Shown here: in pieces, positions 15,536 through 57,701 of the stretch | Layout: each line of letters starts with the position of its first letter | Numbering within the stretch: the stretch's first letter is position 1 | Origin: Armatimonadota bacterium | GTDB taxonomy: Bacteria; Vulcanimicrobiota; JACPDS01; JBDRKI01 | Direction: 5' to 3' | Assembly: GCA_043814095.1 (NCBI GenBank) | Contig: JBDRKI010000075.1 | Location: 424 to 64,423 of the forward strand | Length of the DNA stretch: 64,000 nucleotides | The notes under the pieces: model-generated | Database searches by the model: none | Seen by the model: only the letters and a program-made list of their open reading frames with translations | Told to the model about the DNA's origin: nothing | Program-made: the position numbers and the translations under genes

Positions 15536-15571
15536 TTTATTAGTCCGCCTTACAGGCGGTCAGGAGGCTTT

Positions 15572-22861: not shown

Positions 22862-22941
22862 AAAATACTCCTTTTGGTAGCATTTTTCACTAAAAATTAC
22901 CCCACTTGACCTATATCCGTATACGCGGGGGGGGGTATAAT
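22862..22941 (+). promoter_or_regulatory. Conserved promoter module for family copy 1: AAAATACTCCTTTTGG motif, TTGACC box, G9 tract, TATAAT
   Basis: Motif 22862-22877, TTGACC 22906-22911, poly-G 22927-22935 (9 G), TATAAT 22936-22941. The same module lies upstream of the 25082 and 39879 genes. The 57595(-) copy keeps only the poly-G tract and TATAAT. Confidence 0.45.
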
Positions 22942-23033: not shown

Positions 23034-23507
23034 GTGAAAAAACTACTTATAGCGCTTGTAGCGATAGCATTTCTGACAACAGCGGCATTTGCCGGGTCAA
23101 CTGACACACAGACTGTGTATTATGAGATTGATGCAATTAATGAACTTGTTTTTGGCGATGATACAACCTTAACAATGGACACTGCAACTGCAGGGGATGA
23201 ACCTTTTCACGATTTCAAATATCCTACCTATAACATTACTACTAACGAAGCTGCTAAAAAATTAACTGCTTCAATTAACGCAACAATGCCGAATCGTGTA
23301 TACTTCAGAGTAAAGGCAGAAGCACCAACCGGCGCTAGCAGTACCGGCTTACAATATATGAACACAACTGCCAAAAATCTTGTAACCGGTATTGAAACCG
23401 TAGTAGAGTCCGGTATAACTTATACCTTAAATACCTATGCATATGCTGATGCCGGTCTACCGCCTGATGGTTCAAGAGTCATAACCTTCACATTATGTGA
23501 CGAATAA
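23034..23507 (+). CDS. Small secreted protein, variable-core family copy 1 (157 aa)
   Basis: GTG start after a GGAGG RBS. Sec signal with AFA|GS cleavage site. Conserved STDTQTVYYEIDAINE N-terminus and LPPDGSRVITFTLCDE C-terminus shared with three paralogs. Divergent middle. Confidence 0.7.
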   Translation: MKKLLIALVAIAFLTTAAFAGSTDTQTVYYEIDAINELVFGDDTTLTMDTATAGDEPFHDFKYPTYNITTNEAAKKLTASINATMPNRVYFRVKAEAPTGASSTGLQYMNTTAKNLVTGIETVVESGITYTLNTYAYADAGLPPDGSRVITFTLCDE

Positions 23508-23533: not shown

Positions 23534-23560
23534 AAGCATACTCATGCGGTATGCTTTTTT
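23534..23560. terminator. Rho-independent terminator (AAGCATAC-loop-GTATGCTT plus T-run), bidirectional, shared with the convergent ATPase gene
   Basis: Perfect 8-bp stem followed by TTTTTT. An A-run precedes it on the other strand. Confidence 0.6.
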
Positions 23561-24816
23561 ATATCCTGTGCCGCGGCAAAAATCTCCCACGGATATAAAG
23601 ATTTAATTCTTTCATCTTCGCCGGAAGATAGTTTTTGCAGGGATATAACCCAGGCATCTTTCTGTTTGTATTTATCTATAAATGAGATGAGTGTTGACAG
23701 TGATTTTTGCGGATACGAAAGTTTGGCTTCTGCCGGGATTTTCTTAAAATTAAGATCCGCGATAAAATCTATCTCCGTTTTCTGTTTAGTCCTCCAGTAT
23801 TTTACAATCTCTTTTCCTAATGCCGAACGGATTGCGCAGTAAACAGCGTTTTCAAACAGCTCCCCGCTTACTTTATCCAGAAAAACGCCGTATTTTAAAA
23901 GATTGGCTATGCCTGTATCCTCAAAAAATATTTTAGACATTTTCGATATCTCGCTTCTTATATTCGTATAAAACGGCGGTACCATCTTTATAATGTAAGT
24001 GTTTTCCATAATAAAAAGATATTCTTCTATTGTCGGCCTTGATATCCCTATGGTAGAAGAAAGCTCCAGAACATTTAACAAAGATCCTGTTTTATCCGCC
24101 AAAACCCGGAGAAGTTTATTAAATCGGTTAACATCCCGTATATGACCTAAATCTCTTATATCTTTCTTAACATATGTATTTATAACTTGTTTAAGATATG
24201 TTTCTTTTGCATCGATAGATTTTTCAAGCACAATTTTGGGATACCCGCCGTAAATTAGGTACTCCTTAAAAAGACCGGACAGCTCCTTATTAACGGTTTC
24301 AGACTGAAAGGCTTTGAAAGATGACAGATCGTAATTAATTTCTTTAAACACCAGAAACTCTTCAAAATCCAGAGGATAAAGTTCGAAGTCTACGGTTCTT
24401 CCTGCCAGGGAATCTTTAAATTTACTTTTTACCTGAAAACTGGATGATCCGGAAACGATAATCTTCAACCATTCGTAATGATCGTGGAGTATTTTAAGAA
24501 GCGGGGATGGGTTATCCAGATATTGAATTTCATCTATCAGTATGTAAATTTTATTGTTTTTGTCTATATTCTTATGACTTTCAATATAGCTAACGACTTC
24601 TTTATGTCCCTTATTAAACATTTCTAAGAAAGTAAAATCTTCCAGATCAAAATAAAAAATATTATCAGGCAGAACTCCTTTCTCATTTATAAGCTTATCC
24701 CTTATAATTTTTAATAAAGTAGTTTTTCCCGTCTGCCTGGCGCCATGAATAACCAGAATCTCTCCTTTTTTCAAAAACTTATCGATAGGCTTTAATAATT
24801 TTCTCGGCTTATACAT
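23542..24816 (-). CDS. AAA+ superfamily ATPase, COG1373 / DUF4143-type
   Basis: Walker A (HGARQTGKTTLL), Walker B (ILIDEIQYL), about 420 aa with a C-terminal DUF4143-like region. Paralogs at 44101 and 55711. Confidence 0.8.
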   Translation of the reverse strand: MYKPRKLLKPIDKFLKKGEILVIHGARQTGKTTLLKIIRDKLINEKGVLPDNIFYFDLEDFTFLEMFNKGHKEVVSYIESHKNIDKNNKIYILIDEIQYLDNPSPLLKILHDHYEWLKIIVSGSSSFQVKSKFKDSLAGRTVDFELYPLDFEEFLVFKEINYDLSSFKAFQSETVNKELSGLFKEYLIYGGYPKIVLEKSIDAKETYLKQVINTYVKKDIRDLGHIRDVNRFNKLLRVLADKTGSLLNVLELSSTIGISRPTIEEYLFIMENTYIIKMVPPFYTNIRSEISKMSKIFFEDTGIANLLKYGVFLDKVSGELFENAVYCAIRSALGKEIVKYWRTKQKTEIDFIADLNFKKIPAEAKLSYPQKSLSTLISFIDKYKQKDAWVISLQKLSSGEDERIKSLYPWEIFAAAQDIKKHTA

Positions 24817-24906: not shown

Positions 24907-24988
24907 AAAATACTCCTTTTGACCTATGGTTTTAGTCGAAAATTGCCCCACTTGACCTATATCCGTATACGCGGGGGGGGGGTATAAT
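24907..24988 (+). promoter_or_regulatory. Conserved promoter module for family copy 2 (motif, TTGACC, G10 tract, TATAAT)
   Basis: Motif 24907-24924, TTGACC 24952-24957, poly-G 24973-24982 (10 G), TATAAT 24983-24988. Confidence 0.45.
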
Positions 24989-25081: not shown

Positions 25082-25564
25082 GTGAAAAAACTACTGATAG
25101 CACTTGTAGTAATAGTATTTCTAGCAGGAGCGGCATTTGCGGCATCAACAGATACCCAGACTGTGTATTATGAGATTGACGCGATAAATGAAATTGATCT
25201 TGATGTGGGTAGCTTAACATTAACAGTTGATTCAGTAGCACAAGCTGGATATCAGCCGGCTTCGGATGTTACCGATTGGATGTTATATGGTATTACAACT
25301 AATTCCACGGGTAAAAAAATAACCGGTTCAATTAATGCAAATGTACCAAGTAATTGTCAGTTGGAGGTTCTTTTGGAAGCCCCTAGCAATGCTGTTTCTA
25401 CGGGATTGAAAAATTTATATTTTCAAGCGACAAATTTAGTAACCAGTATTGAAACGGTTGCAGAAGGAGATGTTAGGTATCGTTTCTATTGGCACGCAAA
25501 TGTTGAAGCCGGTCTCCCCCCAGACGGCTCAAGAGTCGTAACCTACACATTAACGGATGAATAA
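25082..25564 (+). CDS. Small secreted protein, variable-core family copy 2 (160 aa)
   Basis: GTG start, GGAGG RBS. Same conserved termini (…STDTQTVYYEIDAINE… / …LPPDGSRVVTYTLTDE). Confidence 0.7.
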   Translation: MKKLLIALVVIVFLAGAAFAASTDTQTVYYEIDAINEIDLDVGSLTLTVDSVAQAGYQPASDVTDWMLYGITTNSTGKKITGSINANVPSNCQLEVLLEAPSNAVSTGLKNLYFQATNLVTSIETVAEGDVRYRFYWHANVEAGLPPDGSRVVTYTLTDE

Positions 25565-37827: not shown

Positions 37828-38754
37828 TTATTTTTTCTCTACCGTAATTTTAATATATACCTCGTCTTCTGTCTTTAATATAACTCTCGGAGGAACTTCA
37901 AGCTTAACTTCCTTTCTTAAGTTCTTGTCTATCCCTCCGACATAAATTCTCTCGGTATATATTTTATCAACTTCAACGTCCTGCGGGCACTGCACCATAA
38001 CGGATAACGGATTCAGTTTTATGGAAGTGATCTCATACCCGTTCTCAACAGAACCCGATATGCGGGCTTCAACCGGCACTGTTTTAGTTGTAAAATTCTG
38101 CTCTACCTTTACGGTTACAAAAACATATTTCGGGTTTATCGTAAGCTGGGACAGCGGCTTTTCCCTGCTGTCATAAGCCGCAAGCTCCACTTTCTGAACA
38201 AAATCTGTTTTCTCATCGGTTAAAGTCGGCTGGGCGTACACATTCCTTATTCTGTCCAGTATGGTGCTGGGGCCCTCAATAACGGCCGTGTCTTTATCAA
38301 TTAATATCTTCTCAAGAGAATACGAGGGAGGAAGGCTTCCCACGGGCTTAGATTCTACCGGAAAAAATCTTTTTTCCTTCTCATCCAGCATTATTTTTAC
38401 CCTTTTGGGATTTACGTCTACAACATCAACCCCGGACGGAGAGTTAACTTTTATGTAAACCCAGTTGCTTCCCAGCTTTTTATCCGCAAGATCCATATAC
38501 ACATCAAACTTGTCGGGCTTAATGCTGCTTATAATCTTCGGAACGCCTTTAACTTTTAAAGTTACCTTCTTCGGCATATCAAGGACAATAAGGTTTGCCG
38601 GAACATTCTTAATCTTAACGTCAACAACATCCACCCTGGCAAGCACTTCACTCAGCGGATTCTGGTAAAAGCAAACATATATCCAGAGCAGTACCGCAAA
38701 GAACAAAGATAACAGTTTTAAGTTAATGTTTTTTCTTAAAGATTGTAAAAACAT
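37828..38754 (-). CDS. cdaR: YbbR-domain protein (CdaR, regulator of diadenylate cyclase)
   Basis: N-terminal TM plus repeated YbbR-like beta domains. Position between cdaA and glmM. Confidence 0.7.
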   Translation of the reverse strand: MFLQSLRKNINLKLLSLFFAVLLWIYVCFYQNPLSEVLARVDVVDVKIKNVPANLIVLDMPKKVTLKVKGVPKIISSIKPDKFDVYMDLADKKLGSNWVYIKVNSPSGVDVVDVNPKRVKIMLDEKEKRFFPVESKPVGSLPPSYSLEKILIDKDTAVIEGPSTILDRIRNVYAQPTLTDEKTDFVQKVELAAYDSREKPLSQLTINPKYVFVTVKVEQNFTTKTVPVEARISGSVENGYEITSIKLNPLSVMVQCPQDVEVDKIYTERIYVGGIDKNLRKEVKLEVPPRVILKTEDEVYIKITVEKK

Positions 38755-39586
38755 TTTTTAAATCAAACCCTTTAAATATTTTTGCCGGCCTGGCCAGACC
38801 GGGACTTAGATAACTTTTTAACATCTTTTTAAAATTCTCGGTATTTAAATTGCGGGTCATCTTGCCGCCCCTTACAATTGAAACCCCGCCTGTTTCTTCG
38901 GAAACCACAATCGCTATTGCATCGGCCTCCTCGGTAATGCCGAGTGCCGCCCTGTGCCTCGCTCCCATTTTTTCCTTCATGGCGGATACCTCTTCGGACA
39001 ATGGCAGGTAGCATGAAGCCGCCGCGACCTTGCCCGCCCTTATTATAACCGCGCCGTCATGAAGCGGGGACTGGGTAACAAAAATTGAAAGCAGAAGCTT
39101 CGCGGAAACATCCGCGTCTATTTTTATGCCTGTCTCAATAAAGTCCTGCAGGCCCGTAGCTTTTTCTATGATGATAAGAGAGCCCATACGGTTCTGTGAA
39201 AGAATGTATACTGCCCATGTAAGCTCATCTATAAGTTTCGCGAGAACCTCTTTGTCCAGTTTATAAATAGAAGTGCGGAATACGCCGCCGCGCCTTCCTA
39301 TATGCTCAAGCGCTCTTCTTAACTCCGGCTGGAAAACTATAGGCAGGGCAACAGCCGCCGCAAGCAGTGCTTTTTCTAAGATCCAGTATACCGTATCCAG
39401 TTTAAAATAAGAGCTTGCCAGCATTAAAAACAGCAGGATGCCTATACCCTGCAGTATCTGAACAGCCCTGGTTCCCCTTATAAGTAAAAGCAGATAGTAA
39501 AAAAGAACCGCGACAAGCAAGATATCAACGGCATTTCTTAAAATATCCGCCCATGGCAGATTTGAAAAAATGTTAAAATCAAGCAT
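38723..39586 (-). CDS. cdaA: Diadenylate cyclase (c-di-AMP synthase), membrane-anchored
   Basis: 3 TM plus DAC domain motifs (DGAVIIR, RHRAALGITEEADAIAIVVSEETGGVSIV). Confidence 0.85.
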   Translation of the reverse strand: MLDFNIFSNLPWADILRNAVDILLVAVLFYYLLLLIRGTRAVQILQGIGILLFLMLASSYFKLDTVYWILEKALLAAAVALPIVFQPELRRALEHIGRRGGVFRTSIYKLDKEVLAKLIDELTWAVYILSQNRMGSLIIIEKATGLQDFIETGIKIDADVSAKLLLSIFVTQSPLHDGAVIIRAGKVAAASCYLPLSEEVSAMKEKMGARHRAALGITEEADAIAIVVSEETGGVSIVRGGKMTRNLNTENFKKMLKSYLSPGLARPAKIFKGFDLKNVFTIFKKKH

Positions 39587-39699: not shown

Positions 39700-39786
39700 G
39701 GTCAAAAATACTCCTTTTGACCCATAGTTTTAGCCGAAAATTACCCCATTTGACCTATATCCGTAAATGCACGGGGGGGGTATAAT
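39700..39786 (+). promoter_or_regulatory. Conserved promoter module for family copy 3 (palindromic GGTCAAAAATACTCCTTTTGACC, TTGACC, G8 tract, TATAAT)
   Basis: Motif 39700-39722, TTGACC 39750-39755, poly-G 39773-39780 (8 G), TATAAT 39781-39786. Confidence 0.45.
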
Positions 39787-39878: not shown

Positions 39879-40337
39879 GTGAAAAAACTACTGATAGCAC
39901 TTGTAGCAATTGTCTTTCTAGCAGGAGCGGCATTTGCAGGGTCAACAGATACTCAGACAATTTACTATGAGATTGATGCAATTAATGAGATTAGCTTTGA
40001 TACAAATATAACAATGACGGTTAATGCCGCAACAGCCGGTTCACAGCCAGCAGAAGTAAGTGTATGTTCTCTCGAATATAACATTACTACCAATGAAACC
40101 GGCAAGAAATTAACAGGCCAGCTTAATGCGAATATGCCGGGTAACACTACTCTTAAGGTTAATGTAGACGGCGGTGAAGTCGCATTATCAACCACCGCAA
40201 ATAATCTATACACTAATATTTCAACCATGGTAACAGCAGGCGACTGGTATTACAGCTTCTCTTTTCGAGCAACAGTCGCAGCCGGTCTCCCCCCAGACGG
40301 CTCAAGAGTCGTAACCTACACATTAACGGATGAATAA
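39879..40337 (+). CDS. Small secreted protein, variable-core family copy 3 (152 aa)
   Basis: GTG start, GGAGG RBS. Conserved termini (STDTQTIYYEIDAINE / LPPDGSRVVTYTLTDE). Confidence 0.7.
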   Translation: MKKLLIALVAIVFLAGAAFAGSTDTQTIYYEIDAINEISFDTNITMTVNAATAGSQPAEVSVCSLEYNITTNETGKKLTGQLNANMPGNTTLKVNVDGGEVALSTTANNLYTNISTMVTAGDWYYSFSFRATVAAGLPPDGSRVVTYTLTDE

Positions 40338-44100: not shown

Positions 44101-45426
44101 TTAGCATAAGACAAGAAAATACCATGCCGGATAAAAAATTACTTCTTTGTTTCTAAATTTTTGAATTTGAAATTCACCCTGATAAACAACATAGCCTCTT
44201 GTTAATTTATTTTTCTCCATGATATAAAGCAGGTTCTTCGGAATTTCCTGCCTTTGCGAATTTTTCACTTCGATCGGGATTATTTCTTTATCTTTTATAA
44301 TACAATCCACTTCATGAATTTGGTCCCTCCAGAAATATAAATTCTTTTGCGACCTCGTAAAAAGAGATGATGCTATAAGGCTTTCAAATACCTGATCGGG
44401 GGATGCACTGAAAAAATTGGCCAGCGAAGGATCTATTAAATGTCCTTTGGGATTCGAGCGCGAGCTTTCTTTTAAAGCTTTACTGAATTTGGGCAGCCTA
44501 AAATACAGCAATGATTTCTCAATGTAAGAAATGTATCTTTCGACGACTTCTCTTGAAACTCCCATGAGACGAGAAATTGTTGTAACATTTATTATAAATG
44601 AAGTGGCGGCACCCAGATAATAAAATATTTTTTCTAAATACGACGGCTCCCTTATCTTATAAAGTTCAACTATATCTCTAAATATAACTTTATCTAAAAT
44701 GTCTTCTTTGATAAATCTATTATGTAAATCTTTATCCTCTGAATACAGCTGAGGGAAGCCGCCCTCTCTTAAAAAGTTTGCAAAGTGAACTTTTATCTCG
44801 CCGGAGAACGGAATAAGTCCGGCAGGAAAATTATCCGTAAATAACTCTTCTTGCTTTATATGGCTGCTTGCGGCAATATGCGGCGCGGAAAAACTTAAAT
44901 ATTCTTTAAATGAAAACGGAAATAAAATTTCTTCTACGGTTCTACCCGCCAAAGACTCGGTCTTCTGGGTTAGAAGAGATATTGATGAACCCGAGATAAA
45001 AAACGTTGTGGGAAATTTTCTATCCACATACAGTTTTACCGTAAATTCCCAGTTTTTTAAAAACTGTGCTTCATCAAGAAAAAAATATACCCTGCCCTTA
45101 TTTAATTCTTTCCCCCTGTACTGTTCATATGCCTTGAAAATATCATCAAGAGAAACTCTTAATATCGGATCATCAAATGAAAGATAGCAAATATCTACTG
45201 GAGAAACTTTTTCTTCTATGAGCGTATTTATCAACTGATAAAATAAAGTCGTTTTTCCAACCCGCCTGGGACCCTTTAAAAGAACCGCTCTTTTTCCTTG
45301 TAAATATGAATATAACCGGGCATAAATATTTCTTTTAAATTCCGGCAAAAAAGCAGAAGGAACCATACCTGTATGCCACCAGGGATTATGAAAAGAAAGC
45401 CTTTCAATTAATACGTTGTTTTTCAT
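44101..45426 (-). CDS. AAA+ superfamily ATPase, COG1373 / DUF4143-type (paralog)
   Basis: Walker A LKGPRRVGKTTLF, Walker B FFLDEAQFL. 441 aa. Confidence 0.8.
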   Translation of the reverse strand: MKNNVLIERLSFHNPWWHTGMVPSAFLPEFKRNIYARLYSYLQGKRAVLLKGPRRVGKTTLFYQLINTLIEEKVSPVDICYLSFDDPILRVSLDDIFKAYEQYRGKELNKGRVYFFLDEAQFLKNWEFTVKLYVDRKFPTTFFISGSSISLLTQKTESLAGRTVEEILFPFSFKEYLSFSAPHIAASSHIKQEELFTDNFPAGLIPFSGEIKVHFANFLREGGFPQLYSEDKDLHNRFIKEDILDKVIFRDIVELYKIREPSYLEKIFYYLGAATSFIINVTTISRLMGVSREVVERYISYIEKSLLYFRLPKFSKALKESSRSNPKGHLIDPSLANFFSASPDQVFESLIASSLFTRSQKNLYFWRDQIHEVDCIIKDKEIIPIEVKNSQRQEIPKNLLYIMEKNKLTRGYVVYQGEFQIQKFRNKEVIFYPAWYFLVLC

Positions 45427-49471: not shown

Positions 49472-49522
49472 GGTCAAACGGAGTATTTTTATATGCTTTT
49501 TTACAAAATACTCCGTTTGACC
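49472..49522. promoter_or_regulatory. Perfect 18-bp inverted repeat (GGTCAAACGGAGTATTTT, 15-nt spacer, AAAATACTCCGTTTGACC), a double copy of the shared upstream motif
   Basis: The arms are exact reverse complements. Each arm matches the motif found upstream of the small-protein family and the 53693 gene. Lies about 85 nt upstream of the 49606 start. Confidence 0.5.
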
Positions 49523-49605
49523 GATACCCGCTTTATTTCCCCGATGGTAAAATAAAGTTAGGAGAACAAGAAATAAAGAAAATTTGACATAAAAGCGAGG
49601 GTTTT

Positions 49606-50580
49606 ATGAAAAAACAAATATTTTACGTATACCTGCTTATCTGTTTCGCTCTGCTAACCTTCGGCTGCGGGAGCGGCGGAGGAGGAGGCGGCGGCGGTGG
49701 CGGCGGCGGCACCTCCAGTGGAGGAAGCAGTACGCCCACTCCTACGCCCACGGCAACCGCGGAACCCGCAAATAATGGATCATTAATAGTATTATCAAAA
49801 GCTGACGGCTCCTTTTACGCGGTGCTTGCCGGTGTATGCGATTATCCCGGCTCGGTAAATGACTTAAACTATACCGCGAATGACGCCATAGATTTATATA
49901 ACTGCCTTAACGGCAGCAGTTTCTGGAGCGGGGTAACAGTATCAATAGAAAACGATATACACGTAACTTACGCGAAAATCCAGAACGCCGTGGCAACCGC
50001 AGCGGCGAATATCGCCGATGACGGCTTATTCGTATTCCTGTTCTCCGGACACGGTACAAATTCCGGAGGCATAGGATACCTGCTTCCTTATGACGGGATA
50101 AGCTCCTCATCGTGCAGAATAAGCGAAACTACCCTGCGCGTATGGCTTGACAGTTTTCCAACAAATTCAAAAAAATACATACTTATAGATTCCTGCTACA
50201 GCGGAGAATTTGTTGACATGTCGCCAAGGGGAGAAGAAGTCCTAACTTCCAAGTTTGTAGCAATAGAAGGATCTGATATTGCTTTCAGCAGGGATACGGC
50301 AAGATCCCTGGTCGGCGCGAACAATACTTATGTTATGGCTTCTTCCGCGGGAGACGAAGTAAGCTATGAATCAAGCCTGCTCCAGAACGGCGTATTCGGA
50401 TATTATGTGGCACAGGGGCTCGGCACGGGCGCTATAATAGGTCCGGCAGACGCGAACTTGAGCAATACTATAACCGCGGAAGAGATGACCGTATATGTAC
50501 CGCCTCTTGTAACGATTTATGTGGCAGGCCAGCATCCTCAATCTTATGATAATGTAATAGGCGATTTAAGAATAAAATAA
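49606..50580 (+). CDS. Caspase-like (peptidase C14, clan CD) domain lipoprotein with poly-Gly tether
   Basis: Signal peptide ending …LTFGC then G13. Caspase His (FLFSGHG) and Cys (LIDSCYSG) motifs. C-terminus …YDNVIGDLRIK shared with paralogs. Confidence 0.7.
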   Translation: MKKQIFYVYLLICFALLTFGCGSGGGGGGGGGGGGTSSGGSSTPTPTPTATAEPANNGSLIVLSKADGSFYAVLAGVCDYPGSVNDLNYTANDAIDLYNCLNGSSFWSGVTVSIENDIHVTYAKIQNAVATAAANIADDGLFVFLFSGHGTNSGGIGYLLPYDGISSSSCRISETTLRVWLDSFPTNSKKYILIDSCYSGEFVDMSPRGEEVLTSKFVAIEGSDIAFSRDTARSLVGANNTYVMASSAGDEVSYESSLLQNGVFGYYVAQGLGTGAIIGPADANLSNTITAEEMTVYVPPLVTIYVAGQHPQSYDNVIGDLRIK

Positions 50581-50692
50581 TACACCTCGACCCGCCCGCA
50601 GATAAAGGCTCTGTGTAAAAACAGGGCTTTTATCCATTTAACCTCAAAGGAACTTTGCTCTGCTTGTAAAATTAATCCTATAATTAAACGCT

Positions 50693-51538
50693 TTGGAGAT
50701 TTTTATGAAAAAATTTGTTTTATTTATGATGTGCTCTTTGTTTGTCTTGGCTTTTTCTTTGCATGGCACGGGACACTGCAAGCTGTTAATGCCCGAAACG
50801 GAAAAAAACATATTGGGCGCGGCTTATTTTAAAGACGGCAAAGTAAACATAGCTATTGCAAATAACTCCGATGAAAAACAATATTTAAAAATATCTTACG
50901 GATATTACGAACTTAATCCGGTAAAAGTCCATACCAAAGATATCCTCGTAGGCTCAAAAGAGGTTATGCTTCTTGCTTTTAACAAAGCTTACGCGAAAAC
51001 AAAAACAGGACAGAAAAAAACATGCGACACCGTTTTTATATACAATGACTCCGGCGAACTGCTGAATCTTATTAACGTTCAGGGGTTGACCGCCGGAACG
51101 AACTACTTTAAATGCTACTCATATTTTATGAATGATTATAAAATGTGCAGGATACTGCTTAATTTAAACGCATTAAAAAATGAAAATTATATATATATCG
51201 TTGATAAAAATCCTTTATCTTCATCCGGTGAAGCCGATATAACCCTGCAGGCATCGGGATTTATGGGATTGAACCAGATAAACTCCCGGGATCTTTATAA
51301 TATTGATATAGATAAAGATTATATAGAACAGATCTGCAAAGAATCATCCGGAAGCTGTCTTTTCTACGGTGCCGGCTATATGTATTTAAGAATAACTACA
51401 GGAGAGCTGGAAAAAGCAGTTCTTGTATCCCCTAAAATAAAAAAATACCATTTCGGAACCCAGGGAGTAACTTCCGGGAATATATCCACGCCTCAGATAC
51501 TATTTTACCCGCAGAAATATAAAGTAAAAGAATTATAA
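50693..51538 (+). CDS. Hypothetical secreted protein
   Basis: Signal peptide. Embedded within the caspase-like cluster. No recognisable motif. Confidence 0.5.
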   Translation: MEIFMKKFVLFMMCSLFVLAFSLHGTGHCKLLMPETEKNILGAAYFKDGKVNIAIANNSDEKQYLKISYGYYELNPVKVHTKDILVGSKEVMLLAFNKAYAKTKTGQKKTCDTVFIYNDSGELLNLINVQGLTAGTNYFKCYSYFMNDYKMCRILLNLNALKNENYIYIVDKNPLSSSGEADITLQASGFMGLNQINSRDLYNIDIDKDYIEQICKESSGSCLFYGAGYMYLRITTGELEKAVLVSPKIKKYHFGTQGVTSGNISTPQILFYPQKYKVKEL

Positions 51539-51665
51539 CTTGATTTTTTAAATTTTATTATCTTACTTTTTTATTTTATTTATATGGAAATAAAACCTGT
51601 TTTGTGTTACAATGTTATATGATGTAATTAAGCCGCTCTTATAATAACCGATAAGAGGTTTTTTT

Positions 51666-53471
51666 ATGAGAAAAATAAGCCCTTATATATTTTTAATTAT
51701 ACCTTTTTTAATAATTGTATTATTCTCTTCTTTAAGCTGTTCCGGAGGAGGAGGGGGAGGCGTAACCTACGACACAAGCACCATATCTTTTGATCTCCCC
51801 ACCCCAATAGCCGCAGGAACTCCCGAACCGGCAAATAAAGGCGAATTAATATACATATCAAAAAATGACGGATCGGCATATGCGGTTCTTGCCGGTGTAA
51901 CCGATTACCCTGAAGGAGAAAATGATTTAAATTTCACCGCTAATGACGCGATAAATATGATGAACTCATTATCCGGGAACGATTTCTGGTCAACTTCAAC
52001 CGTAACACGGTACAGCGATGTACACGTCACAAAATCGATGATACAGAATGCAATACAAACAGCCCAGGCCGCTCTTAATAACGGCGGATTGTTTATATTT
52101 ATGTATTCCGGTCACGGCGCCGCATCCGGGAGCACGGGATACCTTGTCCCGTTTAACGGTGTTTACTCAGAATCAGAATGCATAAGTGAGGGCGAGATGC
52201 AGGGCTGGTTAAGCAATTTTGACGCGTCCATAAAAAAATGCATACTCTTAGACGCGTGCTTCAGCGGCAGTTTCATAAATAAAAGAACAGATTCTAAAAC
52301 TAAAAATATGGTACCCAAATTCATAAAGCTGGATCATTCCGATACTTATTACGAAAATGATAAATACGCAAAGTCCCTGCTCGGTATCCCGAACTGTTAT
52401 GTTATGACATCTTCTAGAGGAAGCGAAGTAAGTTATGAAGACTATAACGTACAGGGCGGCGTATTTGTGCATTATATCCACGAAGCACTCGGTGACGGCA
52501 ACAGGATGGGTCCTGCCGATTCAAACGGGGATATCATAATAACGGAAGAAGATCTGACCAATTACGTGCCCTCACAGGTACGCAACTATACAGAATGGGC
52601 GCAGAACCCGCAGGTTTACGATAACTATACAGGATCATTCACCGTTAAATCAGGAAGCAAGGGTACAATTATCACAATAGCCAAAGCCGATAGTTCGGCT
52701 TATGCTGTGCTTGTCGGGGTACGTGATTATGAGAACGGCAGAACCAATGACTTAAGCTTTACCGTAAACGATGCCGTTGATTTAAAAGATTCTCTCCTAA
52801 ACAGCACTTTCTGGAGCGGAGCGACAGTATCAATCCAGAATAATATCCAGGTTAACAAATCAATGATAGAAACTGCCGTTAATAACGCCAAAAATAATAT
52901 AGCAAACAGCGGCCTGTTTGTATTTATGTTTTCCGGACACGGCACCAATTCAAATGGATTAGGATATTTAATACCCTACGGGGGAACCGGAGGCGCGGCA
53001 AACTGTATCAGTGAAAATGATTTAAGAAGCTGGTTGAATAATTTTAATTCTTCCGTTAAAAAATATGTTCTTTTAGATTCATGTTACAGCGGATATTTCA
53101 TAGATAAAAGCTTAAGCACCGGTTTAATACCAAAAACCATAGCAATAGATAATAATTATAACTCATTTTACAGCAGTGAAAAATTCGCTAAAACTCTTGT
53201 TGGGCTTTCAAACTGCTGTGCCATGACATCCTCAAAGGGGAGCGAAGTAAGCTATGAAGACATCCCCCTGCAGAACGGCGTATTCGGATATTATGTGGCG
53301 CAAGCTTTAGGCACAGGCGCCACAATAGGTCCGGCTGACACTAACTCAAGCGGCAGTATAACAGCCCTGGAGATGGGAAATTATGTCTCCGTGTATGTAT
53401 CAAGCTATACATCGGGGGTGCAGAACCCTCAAACTTATGATAATTATTCAGGCGAGTTAAGGGTAAAGTAG
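51666..53471 (+). CDS. Tandem double caspase-like (C14) domain lipoprotein
   Basis: Signal plus Cys plus G7. Two complete His/Cys dyads (FMYSGHG…LLDACFSG; FMFSGHG…LLDSCYSG). Ends …YDNYSGELRVK. Confidence 0.7.
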   Translation: MRKISPYIFLIIPFLIIVLFSSLSCSGGGGGGVTYDTSTISFDLPTPIAAGTPEPANKGELIYISKNDGSAYAVLAGVTDYPEGENDLNFTANDAINMMNSLSGNDFWSTSTVTRYSDVHVTKSMIQNAIQTAQAALNNGGLFIFMYSGHGAASGSTGYLVPFNGVYSESECISEGEMQGWLSNFDASIKKCILLDACFSGSFINKRTDSKTKNMVPKFIKLDHSDTYYENDKYAKSLLGIPNCYVMTSSRGSEVSYEDYNVQGGVFVHYIHEALGDGNRMGPADSNGDIIITEEDLTNYVPSQVRNYTEWAQNPQVYDNYTGSFTVKSGSKGTIITIAKADSSAYAVLVGVRDYENGRTNDLSFTVNDAVDLKDSLLNSTFWSGATVSIQNNIQVNKSMIETAVNNAKNNIANSGLFVFMFSGHGTNSNGLGYLIPYGGTGGAANCISENDLRSWLNNFNSSVKKYVLLDSCYSGYFIDKSLSTGLIPKTIAIDNNYNSFYSSEKFAKTLVGLSNCCAMTSSKGSEVSYEDIPLQNGVFGYYVAQALGTGATIGPADTNSSGSITALEMGNYVSVYVSSYTSGVQNPQTYDNYSGELRVK

Positions 53472-53592
53472 CCAAAATCCTGTCAAGTACCTGATTAACC
53501 ATAAACCGCTTCATTTCAGAGGCGGTTTTTTTATTTCCTTATTTCAAGGCATTATTTTGTCGAACATATTTTTGTAGTTCTTTTGGAACATT

Positions 53593-53613
53593 CAAAAATA
53601 CTCCTTTTGGTCC
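53593..53613 (+). promoter_or_regulatory. Shared upstream motif copy (CAAAAATACTCCTTTTGGTCC), about 80 nt upstream of the 53693 gene
   Basis: 18/20 identity with the motif at 22862, 24907, 39700 and 49505. Confidence 0.4.
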
Positions 53614-53692
53614 CTCAAAATAGGTCTTTTGATGGATATTTTTATAATCTTCCCGGGCTTATAATATTAATAGGAAGCCGTAAAAAAAGGAG

Positions 53693-54751
53693 ATGATTGT
53701 TATGAACCTCTCCCAAAACATAAAAAAAACACTTAAAAGCTCAATTTTTTTAGGTTTAGCTGCGATCGCCGCCCTTATAATCACCGCTCTCGTAGGATGC
53801 GGTGGCGGCGGAGGAGGAACAGGCGGCGGCGGCGGAGTATCTGCCGGAAACCCGCCCGCCATACTTTTACCGGATTACACCCCTCCCCCTGCGCCTGATA
53901 CGCACAGCGATGACCCGCCCCCGCCCGAAGAAACTTCAACAAAAGCATTTGTCATACTCGTAGGCATGGCAGACTACCCCGGGACCATAAACGACCTGCG
54001 TTATACCGCTAAAGACGCTCAAGATGTTTACAACTGCCTGATATCTTCAAGCGTATGGGGCGAAGCCACATTCAAAGTCTTTTTAAATTCCAACGCGACA
54101 AAAAGCGCTATCGCAAACGCTTTTTCCGAAGCCAAAAACACTTTAGATGATGACGGTATATTCTTATTCTACTATTCCGGGCACGGTACTAATTCGGGCA
54201 CAACTGGCTATATAATTCCTTACGATGCTCTTACATGGGAAGGATTTATAAACCAGTCCAACCTCATAAGCGGTGATGATTTAAACTCTTACTTAAGCCA
54301 GCTTCCCGAAACCGTAAAGAAATATGTAGCATCTGATTCATGCCACAGCGGATACCTTATAGGCGCGAGATCCGAATTTGATACTGCTGAAAATAAAGTT
54401 AAATTTGTTCCCATGGCCGATTCCAATCCCGGCTACAGCGAAGAAGAATTCGCCAGATCCATTGTGGGAACTTCAAACTGCTATGTAATGACTTCCTCAA
54501 GCGGAACTGAATTAAGCTGGGAAACCAGCATACTGCAGGCGGGAGTATTCAGTTACTATCTCTGCCAGGGACTCGGCAACGGCAGCGCCCTGGGCGCAGG
54601 AGATATTAACTCCGACAGCACAATAACAGCTGAAGAATTATCCGTCTATGTTCCCCCGGCCGTAAGCAATTATATTTCAAGTCATATAGAAGGGTATACA
54701 CAGACTCCTCAAAGTTATGATAACTTTGAAGGCGAGTTAAGGGTAAAATAA
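53693..54751 (+). CDS. Caspase-like (C14) domain lipoprotein with Gly/Pro-rich tether
   Basis: Lipobox LVGC plus GGGGGGTGGGGG. Motifs YYSGHG / SDSCHSG. C-terminal YDNFEGELRVK. Confidence 0.7.
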   Translation: MIVMNLSQNIKKTLKSSIFLGLAAIAALIITALVGCGGGGGGTGGGGGVSAGNPPAILLPDYTPPPAPDTHSDDPPPPEETSTKAFVILVGMADYPGTINDLRYTAKDAQDVYNCLISSSVWGEATFKVFLNSNATKSAIANAFSEAKNTLDDDGIFLFYYSGHGTNSGTTGYIIPYDALTWEGFINQSNLISGDDLNSYLSQLPETVKKYVASDSCHSGYLIGARSEFDTAENKVKFVPMADSNPGYSEEEFARSIVGTSNCYVMTSSSGTELSWETSILQAGVFSYYLCQGLGNGSALGAGDINSDSTITAEELSVYVPPAVSNYISSHIEGYTQTPQSYDNFEGELRVK

Positions 54752-54949
54752 AAAAGTGCGGATTCCTTGGTCTTTGTTTTGGTGTTGCCGCGCAGCCCCG
54801 CAAGAGATGCGGGACTGTGTATTGAAGAGAAAAGTCAGAGATAACCTAATGAAACAGGGATGTGATCCACGACACATCCCTGTTTCATTATATTAAAGAC
54901 ATGATTATAAAGAAGGACACCTTTATATATAATAGAAATAATTTTAATT

Positions 54950-55714
54950 ATGGCAAAAATTAAAATAAAAAACAGAACAATTGATATTGACGCGGTAATC
55001 TTTGATAAAGACGGGACATTAATTGAAATATTTCCCATGCTTCACGCCGTATTAAAAGAAAGAATCAAAGAACTGCTTAAATTTATTCCAAAAAAAATAA
55101 TACCTGACTACAAAAAAGGCGTGGGCATAAACCTTAAAACAGGCACGATAAACCCCTACGGCCCGCTCGCGTGCGCCCCGCGCCATGAAGAGATAATTGT
55201 CTGCGCCCAGATACTCTTCCGGCACGGATACCCCTACCATGAAGCAAGAAATATCGCGAAAAAAGCATATGATAAAGCGGATTTCGGGATGGATCTTAAA
55301 AAGGGGCTTAAAATTATACCCGGAGCTGACAAACTTCTCAAAGAACTTAAAAAGAAGAAAATAAAGATATTTATTGTTACAAGCGATTCGGTATGCAGGA
55401 CAAACAAAATGTTAAAAATCCTGAATCTGTCAAAATACATTGATCATGTAGTTGGCTCCGATTCTGTCCAAAACTGCAAACCCGAGCCCGACGCGGTAAA
55501 TTTCATCTTGAAAAAATACAACTTAAAACCGGATAAGGTCGCCATGTGCGGGGATTCCGTTATAGATATGCAGATGGGTAAAAACGCAAAGGTAAGATAT
55601 AATATAGCGGTATTAACAGGTACCAGCACTAAAAAAGAACTGAAAAAATATACAGGTTTTGTGTTAAGCTCCGTAAAGGAATTAAAACTGCCGCTACCTA
55701 TCCATTATTCTTGA
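54950..55714 (+). CDS. HAD-superfamily hydrolase (phosphoglycolate phosphatase-like)
   Basis: Motif I (AVIFDKDGTL), motif III/IV (…GDSVIDMQMG…). 254 aa. Confidence 0.7.
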   Translation: MAKIKIKNRTIDIDAVIFDKDGTLIEIFPMLHAVLKERIKELLKFIPKKIIPDYKKGVGINLKTGTINPYGPLACAPRHEEIIVCAQILFRHGYPYHEARNIAKKAYDKADFGMDLKKGLKIIPGADKLLKELKKKKIKIFIVTSDSVCRTNKMLKILNLSKYIDHVVGSDSVQNCKPEPDAVNFILKKYNLKPDKVAMCGDSVIDMQMGKNAKVRYNIAVLTGTSTKKELKKYTGFVLSSVKELKLPLPIHYS

Positions 55715-56880
55715 CAAATCCTGTTTTTTGTATTAAAATTGGGAGTATGAATCCCAAAATTAAGTATATTAAGCGCGATTTAGAGCCAATATTAAAATCG
55801 CATCTCAACAAGGGTAAAATTATTGTTTTATACGGTGCCCGTCAGGTCGGTAAAACCACACTTTTGCTAAATCTTTTTCCCGAAAAAGAGGAAAAAACAA
55901 TTTATCTTTCCTGCGATCAGAGCCGCATCCAAGAACAACTAATACCCGATGCTTTACAGTTAAAGAAAATAATCGGTAATCATCAAAATATAATTTTTGA
56001 TGAAGCGCAGTATTTAAACAATCCGGGACTTATTTTAAAAGTTCTAATAGACAATTTTCCGGATAGAAATATAATTGCCTCGGGCTCATCTTCTTTTGAC
56101 CTGGCGCATAAAATAAGCGAACCGCTTACGGGAAGGCATTTTAAATTCATTCTTTTTCCTTTATCTGTGCGGGAGATATATAAAGAAATTCCGGCTACAG
56201 ACAGGAAATTTTACATGGAACAATCTTTTTTGTTCGGCACATATCCTGAGATTTTCATGCTTATCACCGCGCAAGAGAAAATAACGCATTTACAGACGCT
56301 TGTCGACGCCTATCTTTACAGGGACATCCTTGCTTTTAATCTCGTAAAAAATACTCAAAAAGTAAGAGAACTAATCCTGTCATTGGCTTTGCAAATAGGC
56401 AGTGAGGTTTCCTATTCAGAACTGGCAAATCATATAAGTGTTGACAGAAAAACTGTTGAGCATTATCTGGATCTTCTTGAGAAATCCTTCGTCATTTTCA
56501 GGTTATACGGTTTTAGCCGAAATTTGCGAAGCGAAATTAACAGAAAAATTAAAATATATTTCTATGACACGGGAGTGAGAAACGCTCTTATAAATAATTT
56601 TAATGAGATGGATTTACGCACCGACGGCGGCGCTATTTTTGAAAATTTTGTAGTTTCAGAAAAAATAAAACAAGAAACAAATGCTCCTCAAAAAACAAAT
56701 TTTTATTTCTGGCGCACTTATGACCAGAAAGAAGTTGACATTATTTCCGAGAAAAACGGGGTAATTATCGCCGGAGAAATTAAGCTTAAAAAAACAAAAA
56801 AAATGCCCGGACTTTCAGCTTTTAAAAGGCAATACCCGCAGGCAAAAACAGAATTAATAACAATGGATTCTTTGCTGTGA
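55711..56880 (+). CDS. AAA+ superfamily ATPase, COG1373 / DUF4143-type (paralog)
   Basis: Walker A YGARQVGKTTLL, Walker B IIFDEAQYL. 389 aa. Confidence 0.8.
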   Translation: MTNPVFCIKIGSMNPKIKYIKRDLEPILKSHLNKGKIIVLYGARQVGKTTLLLNLFPEKEEKTIYLSCDQSRIQEQLIPDALQLKKIIGNHQNIIFDEAQYLNNPGLILKVLIDNFPDRNIIASGSSSFDLAHKISEPLTGRHFKFILFPLSVREIYKEIPATDRKFYMEQSFLFGTYPEIFMLITAQEKITHLQTLVDAYLYRDILAFNLVKNTQKVRELILSLALQIGSEVSYSELANHISVDRKTVEHYLDLLEKSFVIFRLYGFSRNLRSEINRKIKIYFYDTGVRNALINNFNEMDLRTDGGAIFENFVVSEKIKQETNAPQKTNFYFWRTYDQKEVDIISEKNGVIIAGEIKLKKTKKMPGLSAFKRQYPQAKTELITMDSLL

Positions 56881-57120: not shown

Positions 57121-57595
57121 TTATTCATCCGTCAGGGTGAAGGTTATGACTCTTGAGCCGTCCGGCGAAAGACCGGCTTCGACAATAGCACTTAAATAAA
57201 TGGTATAATATGATTCTGCTGCATTTGTTTCAATGCTGGTTATTGCGCTTTGAGCGGTGGTATTTAAAGTTACTATGCCGGGGCAAGAACAGCCACTCGG
57301 TGCAGACAAATACACCTTAAGAGTTACTCCGCTTGGCATAGTTGAATTAATTGCCGCAGTTATTTTTTTTTGCTGTTCCGTTTGTGGTAAGATAGTAATC
57401 TTGCACGCCTGTGCTATCACCGGCCGGTCCCGTACCAGCCCCTCCATGATCAATTGTTAAGGTTACATCCGCGCCAAATGCAATCTCATTAATCGCATCT
57501 ATTTCATAATAGATTGTCTGGGTATCTGTTGATGCCGCAAATGCTACCGCTGTTAGAAATGCTATAGCTACAAGTGCTATAAGTAGTTTTTTCAC
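57121..57595 (-). pseudogene. Small secreted protein family copy 4, frameshifted within an A9 homopolymer
   Basis: Two overlapping minus-strand ORFs (57347-57595 and 57121-57453). They carry the family N-terminus (…STDTQTIYYEIDAINE…) and C-terminus (…SPDGSRVITFTLTDE) respectively. The junction is an A9 tract (plus-strand T9 at 57372-57380). With A8 the frame would read …TAKKITAAINSTMPSG…, as in the paralogs (KKITGSIN / KKLTASIN). Confidence 0.7.
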
Positions 57596-57686: not shown

Positions 57687-57701
57687 ATTATACCCCCCCC
57701 C
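57687..57701 (-). promoter_or_regulatory. TATAAT preceded by a G9 tract (minus strand): promoter of family copy 4
   Basis: Plus-strand ATTATA then C9 (57693-57701). The reverse complement gives G9-TATAAT-ATAGGTGGGAAGAGGAAACAAGG…, the same as the other copies. The region upstream of it has diverged. Confidence 0.4.

What the first reader, a model, noticed from the sequence alone, without database searches (positions are those of the whole stretch)
49606..54751. Cluster of three paralogous caspase-like (C14) lipoproteins with poly-Gly tethers, including an internally duplicated double-domain member
Genes 49606-50580, 51666-53471 and 53693-54751 each start with a signal peptide and a Cys followed by an uninterrupted Gly run (G13, G7, G6+G5, with Pro/Thr-rich linkers).
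- Each then carries a domain with the caspase/metacaspase His (SGHG) and Cys (D[SA]C[YFH]SG) dyad. The middle gene carries two complete domains.
- All end with a conserved …VYVP…Q.YDN..G[ED]LR[VI]K tail.
- The Gly runs are encoded by (GGN)n trinucleotide repeats (for example 49678-49716), which are themselves slippage-prone and could vary the tether length in frame.
- Surface-tethered clan-CD proteases in triplicate, co-marked by the same upstream motif as the variable small-protein family, suggest a dedicated extracellular proteolytic or processing module of unknown substrate.
Basis: partly seen in the sequence, partly recalled or inferred. Interest (0 to 1): 0.6.

Follow-up and report, generated by a model that had tools for sequence, protein, structure and literature searches.

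The report
Membrane-tethered caspase-like proteases plus partner
An uncultured bacterium carries three neighbouring genes for lipid-anchored, exported caspase-family (metacaspase-like) proteases, a known but little-studied kind of enzyme; the new point is that a small unannotated secreted protein encoded among them is next to such a protease gene in every place where its neighbours could be read.

Summary
ORFs 49606-50580, 51666-53471 and 53693-54751 each encode a signal peptide, a lipobox Cys, a Gly run, a Pro/Thr linker and a Peptidase_C14 domain; the middle gene has two domains. All score above Pfam's threshold, keep the His/Cys dyad, and model as a caspase/paracaspase/metacaspase fold. Both acidic S1 residues of metacaspases are conserved, so cleavage after Arg/Lys is predicted, not after Asp. 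NCBI already names two of them 'caspase family protein' (Armatimonadota MAG).

- **Corrections:** the Gly runs are C-G-S-G12, C-S-G6 and C-G6-T-G5. Cys-polyGly also occurs in an unrelated lipoprotein and in distant relatives. The (GGN)n tracts are imperfect. The shared upstream motif marks genes 1 and 3 only.
the intervening ORF (50705-51538) belongs to the module. Its family has 24 representatives among 1.84 billion proteins and no Pfam or PDB match. It lies beside an exported C14 gene in all 12 informative loci, but in none of 80 other C14 loci.
- **Relatives:** some double-domain relatives have one catalytically dead domain.

Best reading: tethered Arg/Lys-specific processing peptidases with a dedicated partner (regulator or substrate), partly co-regulated with a family of small secreted proteins. 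This is a new variant of a known kind, of moderate interest.

The parts
49472..49522 (+). Two copies of the 18-nt box AAAATACTCCGTTTGACC in inverted orientation (49472-49489 on the - strand, 49505-49522 on the + strand), 33 nt start to start, upstream of gene 1. Probably a regulator-binding site.
49548..49553 (+). -10-like hexamer TAAAAT, 25 nt downstream of the proximal box. The small-protein genes and gene 3 have the same spacing.
49606..50580 (+). Gene 1: 324-aa lipoprotein-type Peptidase_C14 protein. Lipobox Cys21 (49666-49668), Gly12 run (49675-49710), alpha1 Asp93, His149 (50050-50052), Cys197 (50194-50196).
50705..51538 (+). Partner gene: 277-aa secreted protein (NCBI hypothetical ABIH00_07935). 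It has a signal peptide, is beta-rich, and has no Pfam, NCBIfam or PDB match. Its family is next to an exported C14 gene in all 12 informative loci.
51585..51613 (+). Sigma-70-like promoter candidate for gene 2 (TGGAAA, 17 nt, TACAAT with an upstream TG). No box motif here.
51666..53471 (+). Gene 2: 601-aa lipoprotein-type protein with two complete C14 domains. Domain 1 is aa 60-328 (nt 51843-52649) with His150 and Cys198. Domain 2 is aa 334-601 (nt 52665-53468) with His425 and Cys473. Lipobox Cys25 (51738-51740), Gly6 run (51744-51761).
53503..53528 (+). Intrinsic-terminator-like hairpin followed by a T run, after gene 2.
53595..53665 (+). Gene 3 promoter region: box A (53595-53612), box B (53617-53634), a 25-nt spacer and TATAAT (53660-53665). 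The same arrangement is conserved upstream of the orthologue in L001 (5082-5150).
53693..54751 (+). Gene 3: 352-aa lipoprotein-type Peptidase_C14 protein (349 aa from the NCBI start at 53702). Lipobox Cys36 (53798-53800), Gly6 + Gly5 runs (53801-53818 and 53822-53836), alpha1 Asp108, His164 (54182-54184), Cys217 (54341-54343).

Best explanation
The locus encodes a lineage-specific expansion of exported, lipid-anchored caspase-family peptidases (MEROPS C14, metacaspase-like core without a prodomain). There are three genes and four catalytic domains, plus one dedicated secreted partner protein.

Proposed course of events:
1. Each protease is exported by Sec. It is acylated at the lipobox Cys and held on a membrane by a flexible Gly/Pro/Thr tether of about 35-60 residues. 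(Inferred from sequence.)
2. The His-Cys dyad and the two acidic S1-pocket residues are intact in all four domains. The enzymes should therefore cut after Arg or Lys, not after Asp. (Inferred by homology.)
3. The partner is exported separately through its own signal peptide. It acts on or with the proteases outside the cytoplasm. Most likely it is a latency or inhibitory binding factor, or else a dedicated substrate. (Inferred from strict gene linkage only.)
4. Genes 1 and 3 share a two-box promoter architecture with a family of small secreted proteins. Part of the module therefore probably belongs to the same regulon and may process envelope or surface proteins. (Inferred.)
For: - **Family and fold:** Pfam Peptidase_C14 is above threshold for all three proteins, with two hits in the middle one. 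His, Cys and the alpha1 Asp are aligned residue by residue with AtMC4 and AtMC9. The AF2 model has pLDDT 84.7 and pTM 0.71, and Foldseek gives probability 1.0 to MALT1, metacaspases, GSU0716 and caspase-8.
- **S1 pocket:** the Asp in [NK]-D-A and the Asp in D-x-C are invariant. These correspond to TbMCA2 Asp95/Asp211 and MALT1 Asp365/Asp462, which set basic P1 specificity (PMC4357240, PMC6426788).
- **Export:** lipobox pattern is met in all three, and 16 of the 16 nearest relatives have Cys + Gly3-10.
- **Partner rarity:** a 39%-identical homologue sits inside a syntenic caspase cluster in L001. The family has only 24 representatives among 1.84 billion proteins.
- **Partner linkage:** an exported C14 gene is adjacent in the window, L001, L084, L085, L088, L090, L091, L092, L094 and L096. 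In L089 and L093 the adjacent cut gene shows a caspase C-terminal motif. None of 80 other C14 loci contains the partner.
- **Promoter:** the architecture is shared with four small-protein genes and conserved in L001.
Against: - There are no activity, localisation or expression data. The organism is an uncultured MAG seen once.
- P1 specificity rests on two aligned residues. The third pocket residue, on L5, could not be mapped with certainty.
- The role of the partner is not shown. Its AF2 model is poor (pLDDT 44.8). The model matches only generic Ig/Fn3-like beta-sandwiches.
- Gene 2 and the partner gene lack the shared boxes, so co-regulation covers only part of the cluster.
- Which membrane or face carries the lipoproteins is unknown.
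- Relatives with dead domains show that catalysis is not required of every domain in this family.
Confidence: 0.6

Rival explanations
1. Gingipain-like nutritional or defensive surface proteases. The tethered enzymes would degrade environmental proteins in bulk for peptide uptake rather than process specific endogenous proteins. The paralogues would simply widen capacity.
For: There are several paralogues with long flexible tethers. Many distant relatives carry extracellular adhesion-type domains such as TIG, PKD, Big, PPC and the T9SS tail. From established knowledge, the Arg/Lys-specific clan CD gingipains serve nutrition (reviewed in PMC4357240).
Against: An obligate, rare partner gene and a promoter shared with a specific family of small secreted proteins point to a dedicated task. 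No peptide transporters or other degradative enzymes lie in the cluster.
Confidence: 0.15
2. Toxin-immunity pair. The exported caspases would be antagonistic effectors (Tox-caspase type) directed at competitors' envelope proteins. The partner would be the exported immunity protein.
For: Strict effector-neighbour linkage and fast divergence of the partner (15-38% identity within the family). Zhang et al. 2012 describe caspase-like toxin domains, tandem caspase repeats with inactive copies, and cognate immunity genes (PMC3482391).
Against: The proteases are lipid-anchored to the producer and not released. No delivery domain (RHS, PAAR, WXG, TPS), no polymorphic C-terminal cassette and no secretion-system genes were seen in the proteins scanned or in the annotated neighbours. 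There is no match to known immunity families. One partner serves three or four protease genes. The cluster lies in a housekeeping region between uvrA and a HAD hydrolase, and the HAD side is syntenic in L001.
Confidence: 0.1
3. Mostly non-catalytic binding or scaffold proteins (pseudo-proteases) that use the conserved acidic pocket to hold basic peptides.
For: In relatives one of the two tandem domains has lost the dyad: SGNG/DSSAGG in P0002 domain 1 and SGMG/DSSFSG in P0007 domain 2. Both keep the pocket Asp residues. This resembles the pseudo-orthocaspases of PMC6426788.
Against: All four domains in this window, and every partner-linked caspase checked for both residues, keep the dyad, or Cys alone where His was not matched (L094).
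Confidence: 0.05

Closest known systems
Type I metacaspases and prokaryotic metacaspase-like proteins (MEROPS C14B; AtMC4/AtMC9, Yca1, TbMCA2; Geobacter GSU0716, PDB 3BIJ)
   Same: They share the Peptidase_C14 HMM, the SGHG and DxCxSG dyad motifs, the acidic alpha1 and L4 pocket residues, and the QxPQ C-terminal strand. Sequence hits reach E 1e-11 to 1e-12, and Foldseek gives probability 1.0.
   Different: These proteins have no Pro-rich or zinc-finger prodomain and no type II linker. Instead they have a Sec signal, a lipobox and a poly-Gly/Pro-Thr tether. An extra N-terminal beta-hairpin precedes beta1 in three of the four domains. Conservation of the Ca2+ site was not examined.
Exported prokaryotic metacaspases catalogued by Asplund-Samuelsson et al. 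2012 (PMC3501461)
   Same: A metacaspase domain follows an N-terminal signal peptide or TM helix, with extracellular localisation predicted.
   Different: The passages of that survey read here do not mention a conserved partner gene, a lipobox-polyGly tether or a tandem double C14 domain for this group.
Tandem caspase-domain arrays in polymorphic toxins (Zhang et al. 2012, PMC3482391)
   Same: Repeated caspase-like domains in one polypeptide, some of which have lost the catalytic residues (compare P0002 and P0007).
   Different: Here there is no C-terminal toxin cassette or delivery domain. The proteins are lipid-anchored, and the neighbouring gene is not a known immunity family.
Gingipains (C25) and MALT1 paracaspase as Arg-specific clan CD enzymes
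   Same: The S1 pocket is acidic at structurally equivalent positions. MALT1 was the top fold match.
   Different: They belong to a different family or subfamily, with other accessory domains (Ig, haemagglutinin, death domain) and other secretion or activation routes.
NCBIfam NF047832, caspase, EACC1-associated type
   Same: It is the best NCBIfam hit.
   Different: Scores are 46-104 bits against a cut-off of 140. No EACC1 or NTPase conflict-system genes are adjacent.

Membership tests
Peptidase_C14 (Pfam PF00656, MEROPS family C14) | Profile score above the curated gathering threshold | tested here: met
   51.3, 99.5 (two stretches) and 73.7 bits against 21.4.
Peptidase_C14 (Pfam PF00656, MEROPS family C14) | Catalytic His-Cys dyad at the ends of the beta3- and beta4-equivalent strands | tested here: met
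   SGHG and D[SA]C[YFH]SG are invariant in all four domains and align with AtMC4 His86/Cys139 (residue numbers recalled from memory).
Peptidase_C14 (Pfam PF00656, MEROPS family C14) | Caspase/haemoglobinase alpha/beta fold | tested here: met
   AF2 pLDDT 84.7. Foldseek probability 1.0 to MALT1, AtMC9, Yca1, 3BIJ and caspase-8/-9.
Peptidase_C14 (Pfam PF00656, MEROPS family C14) | Cysteine-dependent peptidase activity | not testable with these tools
   Needs enzyme assays.
Metacaspase/paracaspase subfamily (C14B, basic P1) | Acidic S1 residues: Asp on alpha1 and Asp two residues before the catalytic Cys | tested here: met
   Asp93/94/369/108 and the D of DxC are invariant. Their equivalence to TbMCA2 Asp95/Asp211 and MALT1 Asp365/Asp462 comes from the HMMER alignment to AtMC4 and from the literature.
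Metacaspase/paracaspase subfamily (C14B, basic P1) | Cleavage after Arg/Lys | not testable with these tools
   Needs fluorogenic or proteomic substrate profiling.
Bacterial lipoprotein | Signal peptide ending in a lipobox (PROSITE PS51257-type pattern) with Cys at about residue 15-35 | tested here: met
   A regex equivalent of PS51257 matches all three proteins, with Cys21, Cys25 and Cys36 (Cys33 from the NCBI start).
Bacterial lipoprotein | Actual diacylglyceryl modification and signal peptidase II cleavage | not testable with these tools
   Needs labelling or globomycin sensitivity.
CHAT domain peptidases (PF12770) | Profile match | tested here: not met
   CHAT is not among the Pfam hits at E<=1.
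EACC1-associated caspase (NCBIfam NF047832) | Score at or above the curated cut-off of 140 bits | tested here: not met
   46.5, 104.4 and 53.6 bits.
Polymorphic toxin (Tox-caspase) with immunity protein | Delivery or repeat domains, a C-terminal toxin cassette, and a known immunity family next door | tested here: not met
   Only the C14 domain is found in the proteases. The partner matches no Pfam family.
Phase-variable simple-sequence-repeat gene | A long perfect repeat tract and length polymorphism between reads or strains | tested here: inconclusive
   The tracts are imperfect, at most (GGC)4. All proteins found in the collection are singletons. Orthologues 87% identical differ, G7 against G5.

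The most novel reading that the evidence does not exclude
The exported C14 peptidase and the roughly 270-aa beta-sandwich partner may form a previously undescribed two-component extracytoplasmic protease system: protease plus cognate latency factor or inhibitor, or protease plus dedicated pro-protein. In this genome it has expanded to four catalytic domains. It is wired by a common two-box promoter into the same regulon as a family of small secreted proteins whose promoters carry variable poly-G tracts. On this reading it would be a switchable module that remodels the cell surface by limited proteolysis.
Probability: 0.25. Interest if true: 0.7.

Novelty: new variant of a known kind. Interest (0 to 1): 0.45.

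Why it matters
Bacterial caspase homologues are mostly discussed as cytoplasmic cell-death or defence proteases. Exported ones are catalogued but uncharacterised. This locus gives a concrete handle on them. A rare, unannotated partner family defines a specific subset of exported C14 peptidases. Tandem active and dead domain variants suggest how pseudo-protease domains are recruited. A shared promoter offers candidate substrates to test. If the partner proves to be a regulator or substrate, it would be the first defined accessory component of a secreted bacterial metacaspase. If not, the cluster remains an ordinary paralogue expansion of an already annotated family.

Tried and rejected
- **CHAT and EACC1-type caspase membership:** no CHAT hit, and NCBIfam scores are below cut-off.
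- **Tox-caspase with Imm36-type immunity:** no toxin, delivery or immunity domains.
- **Word-indexed homology search for the partner:** it returned only the protein itself, and a profile search found only 4 proteins. The exhaustive HMMER search was needed.
- **GTDB species-representative scan with the caspase alignment:** Absence of close relatives cannot be concluded.
- **Contig look-up for P0003:** not on record.
- **AF2 model of the partner:** built with only 4 sequences, it was poor (pLDDT 44.8). Its Foldseek hits are generic Ig/Fn3-like sandwiches. The profile-against-PDB hits are spurious.
- **Recent internal duplication of gene 2:** rejected. The two domains are 49% identical, no closer than the other paralogues.
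- **Poly-Gly as a caspase-specific feature:** rejected.
- **Gly-run polymorphism from cluster members:** impossible, because every cluster found has a single member.
- **Inter-domain geometry of the double protein:** no coordinates are accessible. Only pTM 0.71 hints at a defined arrangement.
Full report
**1. Observation**

The three ORFs are real, on the + strand, and at the stated coordinates.
- Each begins with a basic N-terminus, a hydrophobic stretch and a lipobox that fits a PROSITE PS51257-type pattern. The Cys is at residue 21, 25 and 36.
- A Gly run follows the Cys directly: C-G-S-G12, C-S-G6 and C-G6-T-G5. A Pro/Thr/Ser-rich linker comes next.
- No other ORF in the 64 kb window has Cys followed by four or more Gly.
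- Tandem Repeats Finder reports 49662-49710 as a period-3 array of 16.3 copies at 78% matches. Codons are mixed, and the longest perfect tracts are (GGC)4 and (GGA)3.
Everything else in the description is accurate.

**2. Family, dyad and fold**

- Pfam Peptidase_C14 scores are 51.3, 99.5 (two stretches) and 73.7 bits against a gathering score of 21.4. CHAT does not appear even at E<=1.
- The best NCBIfam model, the EACC1-associated caspase, stays far below its cut-off: 46-104 bits against 140.
- The four domains align over about 265 residues at 40-57% pairwise identity. SGHG and D[SA]C[YFH]SG are invariant.
- HMMER aligns these motifs onto the catalytic His and Cys of Arabidopsis metacaspase 4 and 9 (E 4e-12 to 1e-11). 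It also aligns the upstream L-x-Y-T-A-[NK]-D-A onto L-R-G-C-V-N-D-V.
- An AlphaFold2 model of the double-domain protein has mean pLDDT 84.7 and pTM 0.71. The signal peptide, the tether and the loop after the first catalytic Cys (residues 207-213) are disordered.
- Foldseek matches the model to MALT1 paracaspase, AtMC9, AtMC4, Yca1, Geobacter GSU0716 and caspases-8 and -9, all at probability 1.0.
- The 'conserved tail' is mostly the normal end of the C14 fold. The Pfam alignment runs to profile position 224-228 of 233, through Q-x-P-Q-x-Y. About ten family-specific residues follow.

**3. Predicted specificity**

In clan CD, P1 specificity is set by residues on alpha1, L4 and L5.
- Caspases have Arg/Gln/Arg at these positions. 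MALT1 has Asp365/Asp462/Glu500. TbMCA2 uses Asp95 and Asp211 (PMC4357240, PMC6426788).
- Here the alpha1 Asp (residues 93; 94 and 369; 108) and the Asp two residues before the catalytic Cys are invariant in the window and in all 12 close family members.
- I therefore infer cleavage after Arg/Lys, not after Asp. This is homology inference, not a measurement.
- An invariant Lys ends the disordered loop after the catalytic Cys (K237 in gene 3). It is a candidate autoprocessing site, which is speculative.

**4. Source and relatives**

- The sequence is from an NCBI MAG labelled Armatimonadota bacterium. Genes 2 and 3 are already annotated 'caspase family protein', and the ORF between genes 1 and 2 is 'hypothetical protein ABIH00_07935'.
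- Only about a dozen close relatives (over 40% identity) exist among 5.8 billion clusters. They include three other double-domain proteins.
- All 16 nearest relatives carry Cys + Gly3-10, and more distant ones do not.
- Run length differs between close orthologues: P0008 has G7 and P0010 has G5 at 87% identity. The run length is therefore evolutionarily labile.
- The tether is not protease-specific. A lactonase-like beta-propeller lipoprotein on the related contig L001 starts ...PGCGGGGGGF. Two distant partner-linked caspases are also lipobox + poly-Gly.

**5. Dead domains in relatives**

- On L001 the syntenic cluster reads: double (active + dead, cut at the contig end), double (dead + active), partner, single, single, HAD hydrolase.
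- P0002 domain 1 reads SGNG/DSSAGG. P0007 domain 2 reads SGMG/DSSFSG. The pocket Asp residues are kept in both.
- In the window both domains of gene 2 are intact. They are only 49% identical to each other, so the duplication is old.
- Tandem caspase repeats with inactive copies have been described in polymorphic toxins (PMC3482391). Pseudo-orthocaspases with a conserved acidic pocket are known in cyanobacteria (PMC6426788).

**6. The missed component**

- The ORF 50705-51538 has a signal peptide and no Pfam, NCBIfam or PDB relative.
- It is 39% identical (E 4e-65) to the 273-aa gene inside the L001 cluster.
- A profile search of 1.84 billion representative proteins finds only 24 family members, all 255-323 aa and all standalone. 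Most have Sec-type signal peptides and a few have lipoboxes.

I read the neighbourhood of every member I could. An exported Peptidase_C14 gene lies directly beside the partner in each of these loci:

| Locus | Neighbouring C14 gene |
|---|---|
| window | caspase genes on both sides |
| L001 | caspase cluster around the partner |
| L084 | C14 gene 16 nt downstream |
| L085 | C14 gene downstream |
| L088 | VWA + C14 upstream |
| L090 | convergent C14 |
| L091 | 802-aa C14 upstream |
| L092 | cut gene with YSGHG/DACQSG |
| L094/L095 | fn3 + C14 upstream |
| L096 | CarboxypepD_reg + C14 (weak Pfam hit) upstream |
| L089, L093 | only the last 63-75 residues of the upstream gene survive; they carry the family's C-terminal motif (...TAEE..Y...DPQVRDN...) |

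- That makes 12 of 12 informative loci. L086 and L087 are too short to judge.
- Every partner-linked caspase with a complete N-terminus (L084, L085, L088, L091, L094) has a signal peptide or lipobox. All keep a catalytic Cys motif, and all but L094 matched the SGHG-type His motif.
- Conversely, an HMM of the partner finds nothing in the 80 loci around more distant C14 genes from GTDB genomes.
- The partner therefore marks a specific, rare class of exported C14 modules.
- Its structure could not be resolved. The AF2 model built from 4 sequences has pLDDT 44.8, with a moderately confident N-terminal beta-sandwich. That part resembles generic Ig/Fn3-like domains only.

**7. Regulation**

- The 18-nt box AAAATACTCCKTTTGACC occurs six times in the window against 0.05 expected.
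- Aligning seven upstream regions shows a common layout: box A, box B, a 25-nt spacer, TATAAT, then T-x-GGAAG. The seven are four small-protein genes, genes 1 and 3, and the L001 orthologue of gene 3.
- Box spacing is 33 nt for the small-protein genes and for gene 1, where box A is inverted. It is 22-23 nt for gene 3 and its orthologue. These are whole numbers of helical turns.
- The 25-nt distance from TTGAC to TATAAT is too long for a sigma-70 -35 element. I read the boxes as binding sites for an unknown regulator; this is inference.
- Conservation of the arrangement in L001, where the proteins are only about 50% identical, supports function.
- Gene 2 and the partner gene lack the boxes. Gene 2 has its own TG-extended -10 candidate and is followed by a strong terminator.
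- Co-marking with the small-protein family is therefore real but partial.

**8. Mechanism and rivals**

The best-supported reading has these elements:
- Sec export, lipidation and tethering on a flexible linker.
- Limited proteolysis after basic residues outside the cytoplasm.
- A dedicated exported partner that binds, restrains or is processed by the enzymes.
- Partial co-regulation with small secreted proteins, which are candidate substrates.

Shown here: family membership, dyad, fold, pocket residues, export signals, partner linkage and promoter sharing. Inferred: activity, specificity, localisation, the partner's role and the substrates.

Rivals:
- Gingipain-like bulk proteolysis. This is plausible, but it does not explain the obligate partner.
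- A toxin-immunity pair. The linkage fits. The lipid anchoring, the lack of delivery or toxin modules, the housekeeping context and the one-partner-to-many-proteases ratio do not.
- Non-catalytic pseudo-proteases. This is contradicted for this window by four intact dyads.

**9. Novelty and score**

- Exported prokaryotic metacaspases are catalogued (PMC3501461), and two of these genes already carry the correct family name. The core finding is therefore a new member of a known kind.
- The partner family and its strict linkage, the tandem active/dead variants in lipoproteins, and the shared regulon lift it to a new variant of a known kind.
- Interest is moderate at 0.45. A specialist would not be surprised by secreted C14 lipoproteins. 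The partner family does make a poorly understood enzyme class experimentally approachable.

Noticed in passing
window 22927-22935, 24973-24982, 39773-39780, 57693-57701 (- strand): Each of the four paralogous small secreted-protein genes (23034-23507, 25082-25564, 39879-40337, 57121-57595 on the - strand) has a homopolymeric G tract directly abutting its TATAAT. Tract lengths are G9, G10, G8 and G9. The caspase promoters with the same boxes have mixed sequence at that spot. This looks like a candidate slipped-strand promoter switch.
   Followed up: partly
window 57363-57371 (- strand gene 57121-57595): The fourth small-protein copy is split into two ORFs (82 and 110 aa) by a frameshift at an A9 run. 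With one A fewer it reads in frame like its paralogues (...TNGTAKKITAAINSTMPS...). This could be a phase-off allele, a pseudogene or an assembly error.
   Followed up: partly
window 23034-23507, 25082-25564, 39879-40337: The small secreted proteins (about 155 aa) have a conserved signal peptide plus an STDTQT[VI]YYEIDAINE N-terminus, a conserved AGLPPDGSRV[IV]T[FY]TL[TC]DE C-terminus and a variable middle. They have no Pfam match and are singletons in the 15-billion-protein collection.
   Followed up: partly
window 23542-24816 (-), 44101-45426 (-), 55711-56880 (+): There are three paralogous AAA_14 + DUF4143 ATPase genes. Two sit directly beside box-bearing genes: one between two small-protein genes, the other two genes downstream of caspase gene 3.
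   Followed up: no
L001 7207-8355 (- strand): An unrelated lactonase/beta-propeller-like lipoprotein starts ...LPGCGGGGGGFTVTAPTPTFTP. This shows that the Cys-polyGly-Pro/Thr tether is a general lipoprotein feature of this lineage.
   Followed up: partly
L001 3-893 and 1026-2867; proteins P0007, P0002: Double-domain relatives carry one catalytically dead domain (SGMG/DSSFSG or SGNG/DSSAGG) next to an active one, in either order. The acidic pocket residues are retained.
   Followed up: yes
window 54847-54890: A perfect 18-bp-stem hairpin (TAATGAAACAGGGATGTG...CACATCCCTGTTTCATTA) lies between caspase gene 3 and the HAD hydrolase gene. The scan lists it as terminator-like on the - strand only.
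   Followed up: no
window 49606-50580: The exact 324-aa product of gene 1 is not in the 15-billion-protein collection, although gene 2, gene 3 and the partner from the same contig are. The depositor's annotation probably uses another start codon or did not call this gene.
   Followed up: no
window 13616-17161 and 38723-39586 (-): Second-messenger genes lie in the neighbourhood: a CHASE2-adenylate/guanylate cyclase, a cNMP-binding HD-domain protein, and a CdaA/YbbR c-di-AMP module. No link to the caspase cluster was established.
   Followed up: no
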